Made by a program: the position numbers. Below, one piece after another: positions 42,001-51,000 of a stretch of DNA of 64,000 bases. Position 1 is the first letter of the stretch. Every line of letters starts with the position of its first letter. Source of the DNA: an uncultured bacterium (lineage in GTDB: Bacteria; Babelota; Babeliae; Babelales; Babelaceae); NCBI GenBank assembly GCA_963848965.1, contig CAWKFG010000001.1:192001-256000 (forward strand). The letters run 5' to 3'.

Positions 42001-45000
42001 CATATCATTATACTATAGCCTATGATTTTAATTATAATTTGTCAATAATAAAAGTATTGGGACATCAGCTACGCAGAGCATTAAGCCGTATTTTACGTGT
42101 TATGAACTTTTTGATGTATTGTTAATTGACCAGAAGTAATGAAGGTTTTACTGCACTCAGTACATACATATGGTTTTTCTCCTGTATGAGTACGTATGTG
42201 CCTTGTTAAAGTACTGGAATCAGCAAAAGTTTTATCGCATTCATTACATACATATGGCTTTATACCAGTATGAGTACGCATATGTATTGTTAATTGGTCA
42301 GACTGAGTAAAAGCTTTATGACATTCAGTACAAACATAGGGTCTTTCTTCGGTATGAGTACGTACGTGTTTTGTTAAGTCACTAGCAGTAGTAAAAGCTT
42401 TGTCGCATTCAGTACAGACATAAGGCTTTTCACCAGTATGACTACGCATATGTGATGTTAAACTATCAGTTCGAGCAAAAGCTTTATGACATTCATTACA
42501 AACATAGGGTCTTTCTCCAGTATGAGTGTATATATGCCTTGTTAACTTGCTAGAAGTAGCGAAAGTTTTACCACATTCAATACATATATGCTCTTTTTTT
42601 TGTCTCTTATGATTAACAGCAGAGTCAACATCATTTTGAGAAGCGTGAAGACGTTTTCTAGAGAGAATAGGTGTGTCATCAGATATGTCTTCTAGTGCTG
42701 TATCTGGTTGTTGAGTGTTATTAGTACCTCTATCTTCTTGCATAGAATAAATAAAATGAGAAAATAAGCAGAGTAAGAATAAAGAGAGCGTTTTCATTGG
42801 ATACCTAATGTTTTATTAGAAAACTTATTGTTTAGGTCTTTAAATATAATTATATAGCTTGAAAATAAAAGTGCAAGTAAGAGCACTCAAAGCTTCTTGC
42901 TTAAGTATGAGTATGCATGTGCCTTGTTAACTTACTAGATTCAGCAAAAGCTTTATCACATTCGTTACATACATAAGGCTTTTCACCAGTATGAGTACGC
43001 ATATGTAATGTTAAACTATCAGCTCGAGTAAAAGCTTTATCACATTCAGTACAAACATAGGGTCTTTCTCCGGTATGAGTACGCATATGTTTTGTTAAAG
43101 TACTAGAATTGGTAAAAGCTTTATCACATTTAGTACATATATACGGCTTTTCTCCTGTATGTGTTAGTATATGTTGTGTTAAATTACCAGATTTAGTAAA
43201 AGCTTTATTACATTCACTACATACATACGGTCTTTCTCCGGTATGTGTTAGTATATGTACTGTTAAACTACTAGAATTGGTAAAAGCTTTATCACATTCA
43301 ATACATATATGCTCTTTTTTTTGTCTCTTATGAATAACTGCGGAGTCAACATCATTTTGAGAAGCGTAAGGGCGTTTTCTAGAGAGAATAGGCGCGTCAT
43401 CAGATATGTCTTCTGTTGCTGTATCTGGTTGTTGAGTGTTATTAGTACCTCTATCTTCTTGCATAGAATAAATAAAATGAGAAAATAAGCAGAGTAAGAA
43501 TAAAGAGAGCGTTTTCATTGGATACCTAATGTTTTATTAGAAAACTTATTGTTTAGGTCTTTAAATATAATTATATAACTTGAAAATAAAAGTGCAAGTA
43601 AGAGCATTCAAAGCTTCTTGCTTAAGTATGATTACGCATATGCTTTGTTAAATTACCAGCTTGTGCAAAAGCCTTATTACATTCAGCACAAGTGTAAGGC
43701 TTTTCACCGGTATGAGTACGAATGTGCTCTTTTAGTAGATAAGAACGAGTAAAAGCTTTATCACATTCATTACAAACATAGGGTCTTTCATCAGTATGAC
43801 TACGCATATGCTGTGTTAAATTACCAGGTTGTGTAAAGGCTTTATCACATTCAGTACATACATATGGTTTTTCTCCTGTATGACTATGCATATGTATTGT
43901 TAAATGGCCAGACTGAGTAAAAGCTTTGTCACATTCAGTACATACATAAGGCTTTATACCAGTATGAGTACGCATATGTATTGTTAAGGAGCTAGAGTCA
44001 GCAAAGGCTTTATTACATTCACTACAAACATAGGGCTTTTCATCAGTATGAGTACGCATATGCTGTGTTAAATTACCAGATTGTGTAAAGGCTTTATCAC
44101 ATTCACTACATACATATGGTTTTTCTCCTGTATGACTACGCATATGTTTTGTTAAAGTACTGGAATCGGCAAAGAATTTATTGCACTCAGTACATACGTA
44201 TGGTTTGTCACCTGTATGCATACGCATATGTAGTGTTAACTTGCTAGACTCAGCGAAAGCTTTATCACATTCGTTACAAACATAAGGCTTTTCACCAGTA
44301 TGAGTACGCATATGCTGTGTTAAATTACCAGGTTGTGTAAAGGCTTTATCACATTCAGTACATACATATGGTTTTTCTCCTGTATGACTACGCATATGTT
44401 TTGTTAAAGTACTGGAATCGGCAAAGGATTTATTGCACTCAGTACATACATATGGTTTTTCACCAGTATGAGTACGCATGTGTAGTGTTAAATTACCAGC
44501 TTGTGCAAAAGCCTTATTACATTCAGCACAAGTGTAAGGCTTTTCACCGGTATGAGTACGAATGTGCAGTTTTAGTAGATAAGAACGAGTAAAAGCTTTA
44601 CCACATTCAATACATATGTGCTCTTTTTTTTGTCTCTTATCATTAACTGCGGAGTCAATATCATTTTGAAAGTTAGAAGGGCGTTTTCTAGAGAGAATAG
44701 GTGCGTCATCAGATAGATCTTCTAGTGCTGTATCTGGTTGTTGAGTTTCATTTGTGCTAATAGCTTCTTGCATAGAGTAAGTAAAAGGAAAGAATAAGCA
44801 AAGTAAAAATAAAGAGAATGTTTTCATCAAAGACCTACCATCTTATTGGGAAATTTTTTGAGCAAATATTTAAATATAATTATATAAATTGAAAATAAAA
44901 TTGCAAGTAAGAGCATCCAAGACTTCTTGCTTAAGTATGAGTACGCATATGCCTTGTTAAATTACTAGAAGTTGTGAAAGCGTTATCACACTCGGTGCAC

Positions 45001-48000: not shown

Positions 48001-51000
48001 TTTTCACCAGTATGAGTACGCATATGTACTGTTAATTTACTAGAGGTGCTAAAAGCTTTATCACATTCAGTACAGACATAAGGCTTTTCACCAGTATGAG
48101 TGCGCATATGTATTGTTAATTGGTCAGACTGAGTAAAAGCTTTATGACATTCATTACAAACATAGGGTCTTTCTTCGGTATGAGTACGTACGTGTTTTGT
48201 TAAGTCACTAGCAGTAGTAAAAGCTTTGTCGCATTCAGTACATGTATAAGGCTTTTCACCAGTATGAGTACGCATATGTACTGTTAATTTACTAGAGGTG
48301 GTAAAAGCTTTATGACATTCAGTACAAACATAGGGTCTTTCTCCGGTATGGGTACGTACGTGTTGTGTTAATTCGCCAGCAGTAGTAAAAGCTTTGTCGC
48401 ATTCAGTACAGACATAAGGCTTTTCACCAGTATGACTACGCATATGTTTTGTTAAACTATCAGTTCGAGTAAAAGCTTTACTACATTCGTTACATACATA
48501 AGGCTTTTCACCAGTATGAGTGTATATATGCCTTGTTAACTTGCTAGAAGTAGCGAAAGTTTTACCACATTCAATACATATATGCTCTTTTTTTTGTCTC
48601 TTATGATTAACAGCAGAGTCAACATCATTTTGAGAAGCGTGAAGACGTTTTCTAGAGAGAATAGGTGTGTCATCAGATATGTCTTCTAGTGCTGTATCTG
48701 GTTGTTGAGTGTTATTAGTACCTTTATCTTCTTGCATAGAATAAATAAAATGAGAAAATAAGCAAAGTAAGAATAAAGAGAGCGTTTTCATTGGATACCT
48801 AATGTTTTATTAGAAAACTTATTGTTTAGGTCTTTAAATATAATTATATAGCTTGAAAATAAAAGTGCAAGTAAGAGCATTCAAAGCTTCTTGCTTAAGT
48901 ATGAGTACGCATATGCCGTGTTAATTTGCTAGACTCAGCAAAAGCTTTATAACATTCATTACATATATATGGTTTTTCGCCTGTATGACTATGCATATGT
49001 TTTGTTAAAGTACTTGAATCGGCAAAGAATTTATTGCATTCATTACAAACATAAGGTTTTTCACCAGTATGAGTACGCATATGTACTGTTAATTTACTAG
49101 AGGTGGTAAAAGCTTTGCTACATTCATTACAGACGTATGGCTTTTCATCAGTATGAGTACGAATATGTACTATTAATTTACTAGAGGTGGTAAAAGCTTT
49201 ATCACATTCAGTACATGCATAAGGCTTTTCACCAGTATGAGTACGCATGTGTAGTGTTAAATTACCAGCTTGTGCAAAAGCCTTATTACATTCAGCACAA
49301 GTATAAGGCTTTTCACCGGTATGAGTACGCATATGTAATGTTAAAGAACTAGACTGAGTAAAAGCTTTATTGCATTCAGTACATATATAAGGCTTTTCAC
49401 CAGTATGACTACGCATATGTAATGTTAAACTGTCAGCTCGAGCAAAAGCTTTATCACATTCAGTACAAACATAAAACTTTTCACCAGTATGAATACTTAT
49501 ATGTTTTGTTAATTGGCTAGACTGAGTAAAAGCTTTATCACATTCGTTACATACATAAGGTTTTTCACCAGTATGAGTGTATATATGCCTTGTTAACCTG
49601 CTAGAGGTAGCGAAAGCTTTACCACATTCAATACATATGTGCTCTTTTTTCTGTTTCTTTTGATTAACCGGGGATTCGATATCATTGTGAGTAGAATAAA
49701 GCCGTTTTTTAGGTACTATGGGTATCTCATCAGATAGGTCTTCTGTAATAGACTTATCTTGTTGAGCCTCATTTGTGCTAGTAGCTTCTTGCATAGTATA
49801 AGCTAAAGGAAAAAATATGCAAAGTAAGAAAAGAAAGAACATTTTCATAGTGCCCATTATCATATTAGAAAATTTATTGTGCAAATGCCTGTCTATAATT
49901 ATATAATTTAAAAATAAAAATGCAAATGCGTGGTTTCAAGATGTGTATACTATAAGCAATCAGGTGTAGAAAAAAAGAAAGAATACTTATTCTTGCTATT
50001 TGTTAAAAGATCTTGGGATACTACCTATGTAAAGAGTTCTATTAAAGGGAGAGCTAGCAATGAGGCATGGACTGCGAGAAGAGATTTTAGAAGCTTGTAA
50101 TAAGTGTATTGTAAGTTGTGAAGAATGTGTAAAATTAGCGCGCCGTTGCTTGGGTACTTGTGAATCATCAGAAGCATCTGCTTGTAAAGAGATGGTTCAA
50201 AAGTATATTGAACATTGTAAAAAATGCATTGAAGCATGTAGAGCGTGTATAGATATATGTAATGAAGGTATTAAGCTTGCTGAAAATGATGAAGAAGCCC
50301 ACTTTTTACAAAAATGTGTAGAAGCTTGTGGTGACTGTATTACTGCATGCCAAACAAGCATTGATAATTGTTCTGTACAAGTAAACTGCATACAGGCTAC
50401 AAAAGAATGTATAGAGCTCTGTAACGAATGTATATCTGCTTGTGATGAATGCATTGAGCATTTAGGCATTAGAGGATTGTAATTGAAATAAACTGCTTGT
50501 CTTTGACAAGTGACCATGTAGGATGCATACGATGTGAGCCTGGACCGGGCCTATGCAAAAAACGAATTATTTCGTTAAAGAAGGGGTTAGTGGGAGTGAA
50601 GGGGACATTGGCTCTGCAGAGCCAGAGCACAAGAATGCGAGGGTACAAAAATGGATCAAAGGAAAAAAACTTTTCCTTATCAAGCCATAGCCGTCCCTCG
50701 CGCATGTGCGCCATAGTATCAAATGCTTTTTGAGCACAGTTCTCTAAAAAATCATCTGTTTCTTGAATATTCTTAAGTGTACTTAAAAAAGTTGTATCAA
50801 ATCTTTTATCACACTGCCTCAATGCTGGCAATAAAATATGGCGTATTCTATTGCGTAAATAGCTTTCAAGCATATTAGTGTAATCTTCTTTGTAGGCAAG
50901 GTTATGCTCTTTAAGATATTCTAGAATCTGTGCTTTTGTAACAGACAAAAGAGGGCGGATATACATACCTGCTTTAGGTCTCATACTTGCAAGGCCTGCA

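What a model noticed while it worked through the whole genome (the two positions that open the first line are those of the whole stretch)
42093..49848. Tandem array of secreted Krueppel-type C2H2 poly-zinc-finger proteins with hypervariable DNA-contact residues
C1:234093-241848 holds seven paralogous genes (g00227-g00230, g00232-g00234; 205-401 aa). Each encodes a signal peptide (ME type), an acidic spacer and 5-12 classical C2H2 zinc fingers joined by canonical eukaryotic H-TGEKP-Y linkers (42 linker-bearing fingers in all). Across the 42 fingers the scaffold is almost invariant, while entropy peaks at helix positions -1, +3 and +6 (2.6-2.9 bits) and +2 (1.75 bits). These are exactly the base-contacting residues of eukaryotic zinc-finger transcription factors. 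The genome has 16 C2H2 proteins in total (also g00071, g00113, g00199, g00226, g00304, g00571-g00573 with a 1209-aa member, g01231), 12 of them with the ME signal. They are best read as a di [...]
Evidence so far: pfam.tsv zf-C2H2/zf-H2C2_2 rows. N-termini and finger counts. 35 TGE(K/R)P linkers in the proteome, 33 of them in these seven genes. Per-position entropy of 42 fingers. Rarity: relatives.tsv counts Pfam zf-C2H2 at E<=1e-5 in only 13 of 189,784 bacterial species genomes and 2 of 260 Babelales; zf-H2C2_2 is in 87 bacterial genomes, 21 of them Babelales. Papers: Dependentiae + zinc finger gives 1 unrelated paper. C2H2 + zinc finger + bacterial effector/endosymbiont gives 188 papers with 3 of 4 terms; none of the 10 listed is on bacterial C2H2 arrays.
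(Added by a program. Inside this text positions count along the whole contig: contig position 192,001 is position 1 of the stretch shown here. "Call 12" and the like, gene names such as g00115 and contig names such as C1 are that model's own, and its searches are not shown. The text may have been shortened before it was handed on; [...] marks where a part breaks off. The agent that wrote the report below was given it as the finding of a first reader that could run no searches.)

Follow-up and report, generated by a model that had tools for sequence, protein, structure and literature searches.

The report
Exported zinc-finger effector gene array
An intracellular-parasite-type bacterium carries seven side-by-side genes for export-tagged proteins made of animal-style DNA-reading zinc fingers whose DNA-contacting residues differ from finger to finger, so they may be sent into the host cell to bind its DNA.

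Summary
Window 42093-49848 (minus strand) carries seven intact paralogous genes. They hold 55 classical C2H2 fingers, not 42: 48 are followed by a linker and 33 by a strict TGE[KR]P linker. The context is bacterial (gyrB, tilS, glmS), with native-like G+C and codon usage. Each protein has an 18-residue Sec-type leader ending [S/A/T]-M-[Q/E], then a roughly 50-residue low-complexity spacer ending in a basic K[KR]x[KR] patch, then 5-12 fingers. Entropy peaks at helix positions +3, +6 and -1, while the zinc ligands and core residues are invariant.

The same leader type heads 222 of 645 signal-like ORFs in the genome. It heads all nine other leader-bearing window proteins tested, which carry ankyrin, LRR or zinc-finger domains.

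Poly-finger genes occur in 51 of 261 genomes of the phylum. Independent tandem arrays with the same hypervariability occur in two other families. Leaderless arrays occur in Endozoicomonadaceae and Cardinium.

Best reading (about 0.55): these are exported, host-delivered sequence-specific DNA-binding effectors that diversify by duplication, finger shuffling and contact-residue change. Secretion, nuclear entry and DNA binding are inferred. Positive selection was not shown: the contact-site rate is roughly neutral. The evolutionary origin is unresolved.

The parts
42093..42797 (-). Gene A: 234 aa; 18-aa leader (..FIYS-MQ), spacer with RKR..KRQKK, 6 C2H2 fingers
42901..43518 (-). Gene B: 205 aa; same leader; 5 fingers
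43622..44827 (-). Gene C: 401 aa from the ATG; 12 fingers, with internally repeated finger modules
44931..45734 (-). Gene D: 267 aa; divergent leader (..LNA-ME) and shorter spacer (HKRSKLR); 8 fingers
45826..46542 (-). Non-finger gene interrupting the array: 238 aa from the ATG, hydrophobic N-terminus, weak 2H-phosphoesterase (LigT/Acb1-like) signals
46668..46757 (-). Pseudogene fragment: a paralog-type leader plus the start of a spacer, ended by a stop
46844..47032 (-). Decayed fingers just after the stop of gene E: in-frame stops, and Cys ligands replaced by Tyr
47033..47818 (-). Gene E: 261 aa from the ATG; 7 fingers
47922..48791 (-). Gene F: 289 aa; 8 fingers; leader and spacer 99% identical to gene A
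48895..49848 (-). Gene G: 317 aa from the paralog-matching ATG; 9 fingers
42849..42876 (-). Conserved upstream element TTGCAC-N16-TATAAT (promoter-like) before gene A. Copies lie at 43570-43597 (B), 44879-44906 (C), 47870-47897 (E), 48843-48870 (F) and 49898-49925 (G)
   Evidence: Conservation is shown; promoter function is inferred
41097..41945 (-). Neighbouring divergent C2H2 protein (282 aa) with a ..LYG-ME leader and scattered fingers
41036..41098 (-). Lone array-type finger remnant in another frame
8583..9740 (-). Further leader-bearing (..LKC-MQ) C2H2 protein, 385 aa

Best explanation
The seven genes encode exported, host-directed, sequence-specific DNA-binding effectors (nucleomodulin-type) of an intracellular Dependentiae bacterium.

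Proposed steps:
1. Each gene has its own conserved promoter-like element. It is translated from the upstream ATG, which has an AGG-containing ribosome-binding-like stretch.
2. The 18-residue leader takes the unfolded chain through Sec. It is cut after the small residue at position 18, leaving Met-Gln or Met-Glu at the new N-terminus.
3. The protein leaves the cell through a secretin-type outer-membrane route or in vesicles, and reaches the host cytoplasm.
4. The mature 21-44 kDa protein is a low-complexity spacer with an acidic half and a basic K[KR]x[KR] patch, followed by 5-12 fingers. It enters the nucleus and binds 15-36 bp of DNA. Residues -1, +2, +3 and +6 of each helix set the specificity.
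5. No enzymatic or repressor domain is present. It would therefore act by occupancy, or through the acidic stretch.
6. The family diversifies by duplication of the promoter-plus-gene unit, by gain, loss and shuffling of 84-bp finger modules, and by fast change at the contact residues on a conserved scaffold.

Shown here: the gene structures, the fold, the leader motif and its link to ankyrin/LRR proteins, the variability pattern, in-situ expansion, and recurrence across the phylum. Inferred: export beyond the inner membrane, delivery to the host, nuclear entry, DNA binding and any effect on the host.
For: Fingers:
- 55 of 55 have canonical ligand spacing and core residues. Pfam E-values reach 7e-112.
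- Gene F matches DNA-bound ZFP568, CTCF, Aart and PRDM9 chains, E 4e-100 to 3e-52.
- A three-finger model (pLDDT 84.8) superposes on DNA-bound Aart (TM 0.94, rmsd 1.1 A) and on 1mey.

Export:
- All seven proteins have Met at residue 19 after a hydrophobic stretch and a small residue.
- Genome-wide, 222 of 645 signal-like ORFs carry M-[EQKDR] after the hydrophobic region. The Met sits at residue 19-22 in 156 of them, and position -1 is A/G/S/C/T in 204 of 222.
- 'ME' at residues 15-36 occurs in 134 of 645 signal-like ORFs against 4.4% of 854 others.
- 9 of 9 other leader-bearing window proteins carry ankyrin (6), LRR (2) or C2H2 (1) domains.
- The upstream ATG has an AGG-containing stretch in six of the seven genes (G has GGG); the internal ATG has none.
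- The genome has three secretin genes, two T2SS-E-type ATPases and TolC-like genes. No VirB4 was found, in an 88.7% complete genome.
- In Chromulinavorax, 44% of CDS and 78% of ankyrin proteins have signal peptides and are read as secreted effectors (PMC6561590, passages).

Nuclear signal: K[KR]x[KR] lies directly before finger 1 in 7 of 7 proteins.

Selection: all seven frames are intact, and scaffold pN/pS is 0.065/0.178. Contact-site dN is about 3 to 6 times scaffold dN.

In-situ expansion:
- The leader is found only in this genome: 7 copies, and 0 of 40 family genomes.
- On a contact-masked finger tree, the 48 fingers need 4-5 label changes, against 44-47 for the five shuffles printed of 200 run.
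- Modules are shared between paralogs at different positions, for example C2 and G5 at 98.6% nucleotide identity.
- Pseudogene debris is present.

Generality:
- PF13465 is found in 51 of 261 genomes and 32 of 145 genera of the phylum.
- 25 of 34 poly-finger ORFs in relatives have signal-like N-termini. Of the other 9, 5 are cut by the locus end and 2 are visibly signal-like.
- Independent tandem arrays in G070 (6 genes, 41 fingers) and G069 (5 genes, 26 fingers) show contact entropies of 2.0-3.0 bits, against a mean of 1.34 at other positions.
Against: - There are no data on expression, secretion, localisation or binding.
- A Sec leader only shows transfer across the inner membrane. How a Cys-rich zinc protein would pass the periplasm and outer membrane is unknown.
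- No dedicated signal-peptide or NLS predictor was available. Both calls are rule-based.
- The basic patch is present in only 7 of 30 relatives' proteins.
- Positive selection was not demonstrated. With finger pairs chosen by whole-finger identity, dN(contact)/dS(scaffold) is 1.05 (0.73-1.49), which fits relaxed constraint as well as diversifying selection. The higher ratio of 2.5 came from a biased choice of pairs.
- The promoter scan of the region found fewer sites than shuffles gave: 22 against 40.
- No effector domain besides the fingers was found.
- C2H2 fingers can also bind RNA or protein.
Confidence: 0.55

Rival explanations
1. The proteins are exported and host-delivered, but do not act as sequence-specific regulators of host nuclear DNA. 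They might bind host RNA or proteins. They might coat or compete for DNA non-specifically. They might target organelle DNA, or the DNA of co-infecting giant viruses or other symbionts.
For: There is the same export evidence as in the best explanation. C2H2 fingers are known to bind RNA and proteins as well as DNA (established knowledge; the abstract of PMC12774644 in the listing says so for protein contacts). No activation or repression domain was found. Contact sites evolve at about the neutral rate, which could mean that specificity is unimportant. Chromulinavorax sits against the host mitochondrion (PMC6561590, abstract).
Against: TGEKP-type linkers (33 strict among 48), the invariant scaffold and the close fit to DNA-wrapped arrays are the hallmarks of DNA-binding poly-fingers. 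Variability is concentrated at exactly the base-contact positions in three independent arrays. Particular helices are kept nearly identical between paralogs, which argues that helix identity matters.
Confidence: 0.2
2. The proteins serve the bacterium itself. They could be transcription factors made from the internal Met (leaderless), or envelope or periplasmic proteins that never reach the host.
For: A Met is conserved at the predicted cleavage site in all seven proteins and in 222 leader-bearing ORFs, so a second start is conceivable. Bacteria do have their own zinc-finger regulators, the Ros/MucR family (titles in the reference list of PMC12491435).
Against: The upstream in-frame segment keeps signal-peptide properties across very different sequences and lineages. 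That is expected only if it is translated. The internal ATG has no ribosome-binding-like stretch, and the upstream one does. The same leader sits on ankyrin and LRR proteins, which have no obvious bacterial target. Lineage-specific tandem expansion with pseudogene debris is not how housekeeping regulators behave.
Confidence: 0.1
3. Eukaryotic contamination or chimeric assembly: the finger genes belong to a host or to another eukaryote.
For: The best database matches of gene F are animal zinc-finger proteins at 40-59% identity.
Against: The array lies inside a 643-kb contig between bacterial genes: gyrB E=0, tilS 4e-53, glmS 9e-208. The genes are intronless, spaced about 100 bp apart, with bacterial promoter-like elements. 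Array G+C is 35.1% against 37.2% for the genome, and codon-fraction correlation is r 0.88. The genes carry the genome's own leader. The same architecture recurs in 51 of 261 genomes of the phylum. Genome contamination is estimated at 1.18%.
Confidence: 0.01
4. A decaying, functionless repeat family: duplicates that drift neutrally after an old gene transfer.
For: Contact-site rate is about neutral. Pseudogene fragments lie inside the array.
Against: All seven frames of 205-401 codons are open. All 220 zinc ligands in the 55 fingers are intact. Scaffold pN/pS is 0.065/0.178. Leaders, spacers and upstream elements are conserved.
Confidence: 0.05

Closest known systems
Metazoan poly-C2H2 zinc-finger transcription factors (ZFP568, PRDM9, CTCF-type arrays; KRAB-ZFP clusters)
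   Same: Same finger, same TGEKP linker and same 28-residue period. Identity is 40-59% over the arrays. The fold is the same, in the DNA-wrapped conformation. Both show tandem gene clusters, finger gain and loss, and variability focused on -1, +2, +3 and +6. Najafabadi et al. 2017 describe that diversification as metazoan-specific (PMC5588721, abstract and passages).
   Different: These are bacterial genes with a Sec leader. No KRAB, SCAN, BTB or ZAD domain appears among the families listed (best 25 per protein). There are no introns. Codon usage is bacterial. The presumed target is another organism's genome.
TAL effectors of Xanthomonas/Ralstonia and Bat proteins of Mycetohabitans (recalled knowledge, not from a call)
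   Same: They work alike in concept. Both are bacterial proteins built of tandem DNA-reading modules. Specificity sits in a few hypervariable residues per module. Both carry basic nuclear-import-like motifs and an acidic stretch, and both form multi-copy, recombining gene families.
   Different: The modules are unrelated: a 28-residue zinc-binding beta-beta-alpha finger reading about 3 bp, against a 33-35-residue helical repeat reading 1 bp. Export is by a Sec-type leader rather than a type III signal. No function has been shown here.
Eukaryotic-like repeat effectors of Dependentiae and other intracellular bacteria (ankyrin, LRR, F-box)
   Same: They have the same leader and sit in the same genomic neighbourhood. 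8 of the 9 other leader-bearing window proteins tested are ankyrin or LRR proteins. Ankyrin proteins with signal peptides are regarded as the effector arsenal of Chromulinavorax (PMC6561590).
   Different: This is a DNA-reading domain, not a protein-binding repeat. Zinc fingers are not mentioned in that paper beyond zinc transport.
Zinc-finger-rich Endozoicomonadaceae (Kistimonas, Sansalvadorimonas, Sororendozoicomonas) and Cardinium
   Same: They have canonical poly-C2H2 genes, often in tandem arrays of 3-5-finger proteins. [quoted passage not shown]
   Different: Those proteins start directly with a finger and have no Sec leader or spacer. Those bacteria are animal symbionts from other phyla. 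The deeper relationship of the fingers is unresolved.
Ros/MucR prokaryotic zinc-finger regulators
   Same: They are bacterial proteins with a Cys2His2-type zinc site that bind DNA (titles only; the rest is recalled).
   Different: They have a single, structurally distinct finger in a small cytoplasmic regulator. They have no tandem fingers, no TGEKP linkers and no leader.
Secreted C2H2 nuclear effectors of the rice blast fungus (MoHTR1/MoHTR2)
   Same: These are signal-peptide-bearing zinc-finger proteins sent by a pathogen into the host nucleus. For PMC12488382 I saw only the search listing and the start of the abstract. That MoHTR proteins are C2H2 proteins is recalled.
   Different: The producer is a eukaryote. 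The proteins have few fingers, and no tandem hypervariable family is known.

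Membership tests
Classical C2H2 zinc finger (Pfam PF00096 / double domain PF13465) | Ligand spacing C-x2-C-x12-H-x3-H with a conserved Phe and Leu core | tested here: met
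   55 of 55 fingers. Entropy is 0 at C, C, F, L, H and H.
Classical C2H2 zinc finger (Pfam PF00096 / double domain PF13465) | Score over the curated Pfam cut-off | tested here: met
   All 7 proteins: PF13465 scores 138-360 bits against a cut-off of 40, and PF00096 scores 124-300 bits against 25.2.
Classical C2H2 zinc finger (Pfam PF00096 / double domain PF13465) | Beta-beta-alpha fold, with consecutive fingers arranged as on DNA | tested here: met
   Three-finger model with pLDDT 84.8 and a hairpin plus helix in each finger. TM 0.94 and rmsd 1.1 A to DNA-bound Aart; 174 PDB matches at E<=0.001.
Krueppel-type poly-finger array | H-TGEKP-Y/F linker between consecutive fingers | tested here: met
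   Of 48 linkers, 28 are TGEKP and 5 TGERP. The other 15 are variants: 12 differ from a canonical form at one position and 3 at two.
Krueppel-type poly-finger array | Sequence-specific DNA binding | not testable with these tools
   Only similarity to DNA-bound structures is available.
KRAB zinc-finger proteins | N-terminal KRAB (PF01352) or another metazoan effector domain | tested here: not met
   No such family appears among those listed for any of the seven proteins (the best 25 of 27-38 families are shown). The N-terminus is a leader plus a roughly 50-residue spacer.
Sec/signal-peptidase-I signal peptide | Short positively charged start, a hydrophobic core of about 11-15 residues, and small residues at -1 (and -3) of the cut site | tested here: met
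   Rule-based only. All seven start MK/MR and have a hydrophobic window, with S, A or T at -1 before Met-19. The genome-wide logo has -1 = A/G/S/C/T in 204 of 222. No SignalP-type predictor was available.
Sec/signal-peptidase-I signal peptide | Actual export and cleavage | not testable with these tools
   -
Nucleomodulin (bacterial effector acting in the host nucleus) | Nuclear-import signal, or size below the pore limit | tested here: inconclusive
   K[KR]x[KR] lies directly before finger 1 in 7 of 7 proteins. Six also have an upstream RKR/KKR, giving a bipartite-like pattern with a 14-residue gap. Only 7 of 30 relatives have the patch. Mature sizes are about 21-44 kDa (from the lengths).
Nucleomodulin (bacterial effector acting in the host nucleus) | Delivery into the host cell and nuclear localisation | not testable with these tools
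   Secretins and T2SS-E ATPases are present, and no VirB4 was found. This shows a possible route only.
TAL effector | Tandem 33-35-residue repeats with a repeat-variable di-residue | tested here: not met
   The repeats are 28-residue zinc fingers. The likeness is functional only.
Ros/MucR | A single atypical finger in a small cytoplasmic regulator | tested here: not met
   These proteins have 5-12 tandem classical fingers and a leader.

The most novel reading that the evidence does not exclude
Dependentiae bacteria, and convergently some other host-associated bacteria, use evolvable arrays of classical C2H2 fingers as programmable transcription-factor-like effectors. These would be exported into the eukaryotic host to rewire or silence specific host genes. 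After TAL effectors, this would be a second natural system of modular, re-targetable DNA-reading proteins in bacteria. The 'kaleidoscopic' diversification of contact residues, thought to be peculiar to animals, would here be driven by a parasite-host arms race or by host switching.
Probability: 0.4. Interest if true: 0.9.

Novelty: new variant of a known kind. Interest (0 to 1): 0.78.

Why it matters
Dependentiae are a widespread phylum of obligate intracellular parasites of protists, and very few are cultured. How they control their hosts is largely unknown beyond counts of ankyrin proteins.

An exported family of modular DNA readers would give a concrete, testable mechanism for host control. 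The targets could in principle be predicted from the finger helices, which is rarely possible for effectors.

It would add a zinc-finger counterpart to TAL effectors. It would show that rapid retargeting of C2H2 fingers is not confined to animals. It would also link similar, barely noticed expansions in animal symbionts (Endozoicomonadaceae, Cardinium).

The shared [small]-Met-[Glu/Gln/Lys] leader may also be a practical handle for listing the whole effector set of these genomes.

Tried and rejected
- Sequencing runs: no RNA holder is listed. The only row is one DNA run holding a 0.07 share of the words.
- Single-sequence AlphaFold of gene B: poor, pLDDT 59. I used it only to note that residues 22-59 have no confident structure. 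It was replaced by an alignment-based three-finger model.
- Phylum-level search: it returned the same 261 genomes as the order-level search and added nothing.
- Origin of the fingers: a first tree put all 48 array fingers in a 53-leaf clade with five Dependentiae fingers, support 83. After adding Endozoicomonadaceae fingers, the smallest clade holding them had 120 leaves and support 0, with 45 gammaproteobacterial fingers, 19 database hits and 8 Dependentiae fingers. Both comparison sets were picked for likeness to the query, and only 24 columns are informative. I therefore drop any claim about the donor.
- Positive selection: the crude per-class Nei-Gojobori ratio at contact codons is 0.54-0.56, because synonymous differences there are saturated. 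Using scaffold dS as the neutral yardstick gives about 2.5 for pairs chosen on the scaffold (biased upward; my ratio's dN contact 0.399 and dS scaffold 0.157) and 1.05 for pairs chosen on the whole finger. The claim is not made.
- Promoter scan: 22 sites against 40 expected, so no enrichment. Only the conservation of one element among paralogs is used.
- Literature: 'Dependentiae' plus 'zinc finger' gave 1 unrelated paper. Babela, Vermiphilus or Chromulinavorax with C2H2 or zinc finger: among the 20 papers listed of 11,649 that held at least 2 of the 5 terms, none combined a Dependentiae name with a finger term. The TM6/Babelota search was swamped by the Drosophila TM6 balancer. 'zf-C2H2' with Legionella effector terms: none of the 15 papers listed held zf-C2H2.
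- Target-site prediction from a recognition code, and a lipoprotein reading of the leader, were considered and not pursued. No host genome is known, and there is no lipobox Cys at the cut site.

Full report
WHAT IS THERE

Window 42093-49848 holds seven open reading frames on the minus strand. They are A 42093-42797, B 42901-43518, C 43622-44827, D 44931-45734, E 47033-47818, F 47922-48791 and G 48895-49848. They are spaced about 100 bp apart. One unrelated gene (45826-46542) and some debris interrupt them.

All seven score far above Pfam's cut-offs for the C2H2 finger and the double-finger domain, with E-values from 2e-41 to 7e-112. A pattern count gives 55 fingers with C-x2-C-x12-H-x3-H spacing: 6, 5, 12, 8, 7, 8 and 9 per gene. 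Of these, 48 are followed by a linker, made up of 28 TGEKP, 5 TGERP and 15 variants, 12 of which differ at one position and 3 at two. Its 33 strict linkers and its entropy values are reproduced.

Entropy is 2.63 bits at -1, 1.70 at +2, 2.99 at +3 and 2.80 at +6. It is 0 at the four zinc ligands and at the Phe and Leu of the core. The three most variable of 28 positions are exactly the three main base-contact positions. There are 40 different contact quadruplets among the 55 fingers.

IT IS A BACTERIAL GENE FAMILY, NOT CONTAMINATION

The array lies in a 643-kb contig of a 1.73-Mb genome, estimated 88.7% complete and 1.2% contaminated. It sits next to tilS, gyrB and glmS, which match NCBIfam at E 4e-53, 0 and 9e-208.

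Array G+C is 35.1% against 37.2% for the genome. GC3 is 19.7%, at the low edge of the genome's 5-95% range of 20.5-31.0%. Within-amino-acid codon fractions correlate with those of 672 long ORFs at r 0.88. There are no introns.

Five of the seven genes (A, B, C, E, F) are preceded by an almost identical stretch of about 100 bases. This stretch contains TTGCA[C/A]-N16-TATAAT. Gene G shares that element, while gene D has a different upstream region. A general promoter scan of the region is not enriched over shuffles, at 22 sites against 40. So only the conservation is evidence, and promoter function is inferred.

ANATOMY OF THE PROTEINS

Every protein starts MK/MR, followed by a hydrophobic stretch, then a small residue (S, A or T) at position 18, then Met-Gln or Met-Glu at 19-20.

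A spacer of about 50 residues follows (29 in D). Its first half is acidic and its second half is basic. In six proteins the pattern is RKR or KKR, then 14 residues, then K[RK]QKK, directly before the first finger. D has HKRSKLR instead. All seven match the monopartite K[KR]x[KR] pattern at that place. The fingers run to the C-terminus, and no other domain was found.

Gene F matches the DNA-bound chains of ZFP568, CTCF, Aart and PRDM9 at E 4e-100 to 3e-52. A three-finger segment was modelled from an alignment of twelve such segments. It reaches pLDDT 84.8, with a hairpin and a helix in each finger. It superposes on DNA-bound Aart at TM 0.94 and rmsd 1.1 A, and on the designed consensus finger protein 1mey. 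The single-sequence model of gene B was poor.

THE LEADER IS THE GENOME'S OWN EXPORT TAG FOR EUKARYOTE-LIKE PROTEINS

There are 1499 ORFs of 100 residues or more, counted from the first ATG. Of these, 645 have an N-terminal hydrophobic window. 'ME' is the most enriched dipeptide at residues 15-36 of those ORFs, in 134 of 645 (20.8%) against 4.4% of the other 854.

A wider pattern, M-[EQKDR] after the hydrophobic region, is present in 222 of the 645. The Met sits at residue 19-22 in 156 of them. Position -1 is A, G, S, C or T in 204 of 222, and -3 is mostly L, I, V, T, S or A. This is the signal-peptidase-I rule, with Met as the first residue of the mature protein.

In the window, nine other proteins carry this leader. 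All nine have eukaryote-type repeats: six ankyrin (one also with a MYND finger), two LRR and one C2H2.

The upstream ATG is preceded by an AGG-containing stretch in six of the seven genes (G has GGG). The internal ATG is preceded by a pyrimidine-rich coding stretch. Together with the conservation of signal-peptide character across unrelated leaders, this argues that the long form is the one made.

The genome has three adjacent secretin genes, two T2SS-E-type ATPases and TolC-like genes. No VirB4-type ATPase was found, though the genome is incomplete. In the cultured relative Chromulinavorax, 44% of coding sequences and 78% of the 98 ankyrin proteins have signal peptides. They are read as secreted effectors, with Sec and outer-membrane vesicles as routes (PMC6561590, abstract and passages).

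HOW THE FAMILY EVOLVES

The 71-residue leader-plus-spacer of gene F is found seven times in this genome: six array genes at 52-100% identity, and one solo 97-residue frame elsewhere on the contig. It is found in none of 40 other genomes of the family.

On a tree of single fingers with the four contact positions masked, the 48 linker-bearing array fingers need only 4 label changes, against 44-47 for the five shuffles printed of 200 run. They fall into one clade. With more taxa they need 5 changes. So the fingers multiplied in this lineage.

Near-identical modules sit at different positions in different paralogs. C2 and G5 share 98.6% of nucleotides. A2 resembles E3, B4 resembles G3, D3 resembles G4, A3 resembles F5 and A4 resembles F6. 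Gene C repeats modules internally. This is what unequal recombination in the 84-bp register would give.

Debris documents turnover. Directly after the stop of gene E lie two decayed fingers with stops and Cys-to-Tyr changes (46844-47032). Further on is a leader fragment ended by a stop (46668-46757). A lone finger lies at 41036-41098.

The scaffold is under purifying selection, with pN 0.065 against pS 0.178. Contact positions change about three times faster, with pN 0.186. Whether this is positive selection is open. With pairs chosen by whole-finger identity, dN(contact)/dS(scaffold) is 1.05, bootstrap interval 0.73-1.49. With pairs chosen on the scaffold it is about 2.5 (my ratio's dN contact 0.399 and dS scaffold 0.157), but that choice biases the ratio upward.

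HOW GENERAL IT IS

The double-finger domain is found at E<=1e-6 in 51 of 261 genomes of the order. In this collection the order is the whole phylum. It is over the Pfam cut-off in 23 of 261, and present in 32 of 145 genera. It is in 40 of the 189 genomes that are at least 90% complete. The 14 control genomes gave none.

I looked at 34 poly-finger frames with three or more fingers in the loci fetched from relatives. Of these, 25 have a signal-like N-terminus by my threshold. Of the other nine, five are cut by the locus end, two are visibly signal-like and two have no Met before the first finger. Many leaders end in [small]-M-[E/D/K/Q].

Two other families hold independent tandem arrays, each with its own leader. 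G070 has six genes and 41 fingers. G069 has five genes and 26 fingers. Their contact entropies are 2.1/2.5/2.6/3.0 and 2.5/2.0/2.8/3.0 bits, against a mean of 1.34 at other non-ligand positions in both. The basic patch before finger 1 is less general, at 7 of 30 relatives.

Outside the phylum, I scanned one genome per prokaryotic species with two peptide patterns from the array. This returned 59 loci. Most are from Endozoicomonadaceae (Sansalvadorimonas, Kistimonas, Sororendozoicomonas, Endozoicomonas). One is from Cardinium hertigii, two from Asgard archaea, and a few are unclassified records, some of which are Dependentiae under other labels.

The Endozoicomonadaceae genes also form tandem arrays of 3-5-finger proteins. 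They begin directly with a finger and have no leader.

WHAT IS IN PRINT

The library searches found no paper on poly-C2H2 proteins of Dependentiae. [quoted passage not shown] It files them with eukaryotic-like proteins and cites work on Ros/MucR (PMC12491435, passage). Its supplementary tables were not opened.

Najafabadi et al. 2017 describe diversification of base-contacting residues as a metazoan peculiarity, made possible by scaffold contacts to the DNA backbone (PMC5588721, abstract and passages). The secreted zinc-finger nuclear effectors of the rice blast fungus are the nearest pathogen analogue. For those I saw only the listing and the start of the abstract of PMC12488382, and the rest is recalled. 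TAL effectors are the nearest bacterial analogue in logic (recalled).

MOST LIKELY MECHANISM AND ITS RIVALS

I commit, at about 0.55, to exported, host-delivered, sequence-specific DNA-binding effectors. The route would be Sec export and cleavage before Met-19, then passage out of the cell, then entry into the host nucleus helped by small size and the basic patch. The protein would bind 15-36 bp chosen by the helices. It would act by occupancy or through the acidic stretch.

Shown: the genes, the fold, the leader and its company, the variability pattern, in-situ expansion and recurrence. Everything from the periplasm onward is inferred.

Rivals:
- Host-delivered, but binding RNA, protein, organelle or viral DNA, or binding DNA without specificity (0.2).
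- A role inside the bacterium or its envelope (0.1).
- Neutral decay (0.05).
- Contamination (0.01).

ORIGIN

The fingers are 40-59% identical to animal poly-finger proteins, which is roughly what a shared scaffold gives. Every Dependentiae lineage examined has the same ..RTHTGEKP scaffold consensus.

The deep placement of the array fingers changes with sampling and is unsupported. Both comparison sets were selected for likeness to the query. A eukaryotic ancestry of the domain is the natural assumption, but no donor or date can be named. Codon usage shows that the transfer is not recent.

VERDICT

It remains untested at the bench.

I rate it a new variant of a known kind: eukaryotic-like-domain effectors or nucleomodulins, with TAL-effector-like logic built from C2H2 fingers. 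Interest is high.

Noticed in passing
whole genome G000; window examples 8583-9740, 10325-12544, 12555-13379, 20695-23304, 24687-25961, 25954-27027, 28490-30868, 31179-33596, 39820-40179, 57951-59612: A stereotyped leader: a hydrophobic region, then [A/G/S], then Met-[Glu/Gln/Lys]. The Met falls at residue 19-22. It heads 222 of 645 signal-like ORFs, and in the window it heads ankyrin, LRR and zinc-finger proteins. Why Met is fixed at the first mature position is unexplained. It could be a sorting mark for a second export step, or a second start codon.
   Followed up: partly
window 45826-46542 (-): The gene that interrupts the array has a hydrophobic N-terminus and two H-x-[S/T]-x motifs (seen by eye in the translation). 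It has a weak Pfam match to the 2'-5' RNA ligase/2H phosphoesterase superfamily (E 0.031). Its language-model neighbours are LigT, cyclic phosphodiesterase and anti-CBASS Acb1 clusters at 0.90-0.93. It may be an exported nucleotide-signal-degrading enzyme.
   Followed up: partly
window 46668-47032 and 41036-41098 (-): Pseudogene debris of the finger family: decayed fingers with stops and Cys-to-Tyr changes after gene E, a leader fragment ended by a stop, and a lone finger next to the 282-aa divergent finger gene.
   Followed up: yes
G000:C4:767163-774663: Three secretin-domain genes lie in a row, in open frames of 1153, 818 and 796 residues. No VirB4 was found. This is a candidate outer-membrane exit for the leader-bearing proteins.
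   Followed up: no
window 192-33596: The upstream 30 kb is dense with large ankyrin-repeat genes (192-3056, 7694-8488, 10325-12544 with a C-terminal MYND finger, 12555-13379, 20695-23304, 24687-25961, 28490-30868, 31179-33596) and an LRR gene (25954-27027). The finger array lies in an effector-rich stretch.
   Followed up: partly
L055, L056 (an Endozoicomonadaceae MAG, 1.58-Mb contig), L059, L065, L063 (Cardinium), L061, L084 (Asgard archaea): Tandem arrays of small 3-5-finger genes that start directly with a finger and have no leader occur in Endozoicomonadaceae. A 6-finger gene occurs in Cardinium hertigii, and poly-finger genes occur in two Asgard MAGs. This may be convergent use of C2H2 arrays by host-associated prokaryotes.
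   Followed up: partly
L007 (G002:C1:445759-448836) and G002:C1:1020987-1031327: A same-family genome has leader-bearing (..LHG-ME) proteins with an atypical finger (C-x2-C-x12-H-x4-H) and a KHSD-x-KPFKC linker. It also has a 10-kb run of weak double-finger matches in frames of 317-524 residues. My finger pattern did not pick up that run.
   Followed up: partly
G000:C1:123806-124063: A solo, short (97-residue frame) copy of the array's leader and spacer with one finger lies 110 kb from the array.
   Followed up: no
window 5471-7528 (-): A MutS domain III/V protein whose first-ATG frame begins with a signal-like hydrophobic stretch. This is odd for a DNA-repair-type ATPase, and the start codon may be mis-chosen.
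   Followed up: no
window 50060-50482 (+): A small Cys-rich protein of 140 residues with repeated C-x-x-x-C motifs and a DUF326 match (E 2.5e-6) lies between the array and tilS. Its opposite strand carries an overlapping 106-residue ORF that is probably spurious.
   Followed up: no
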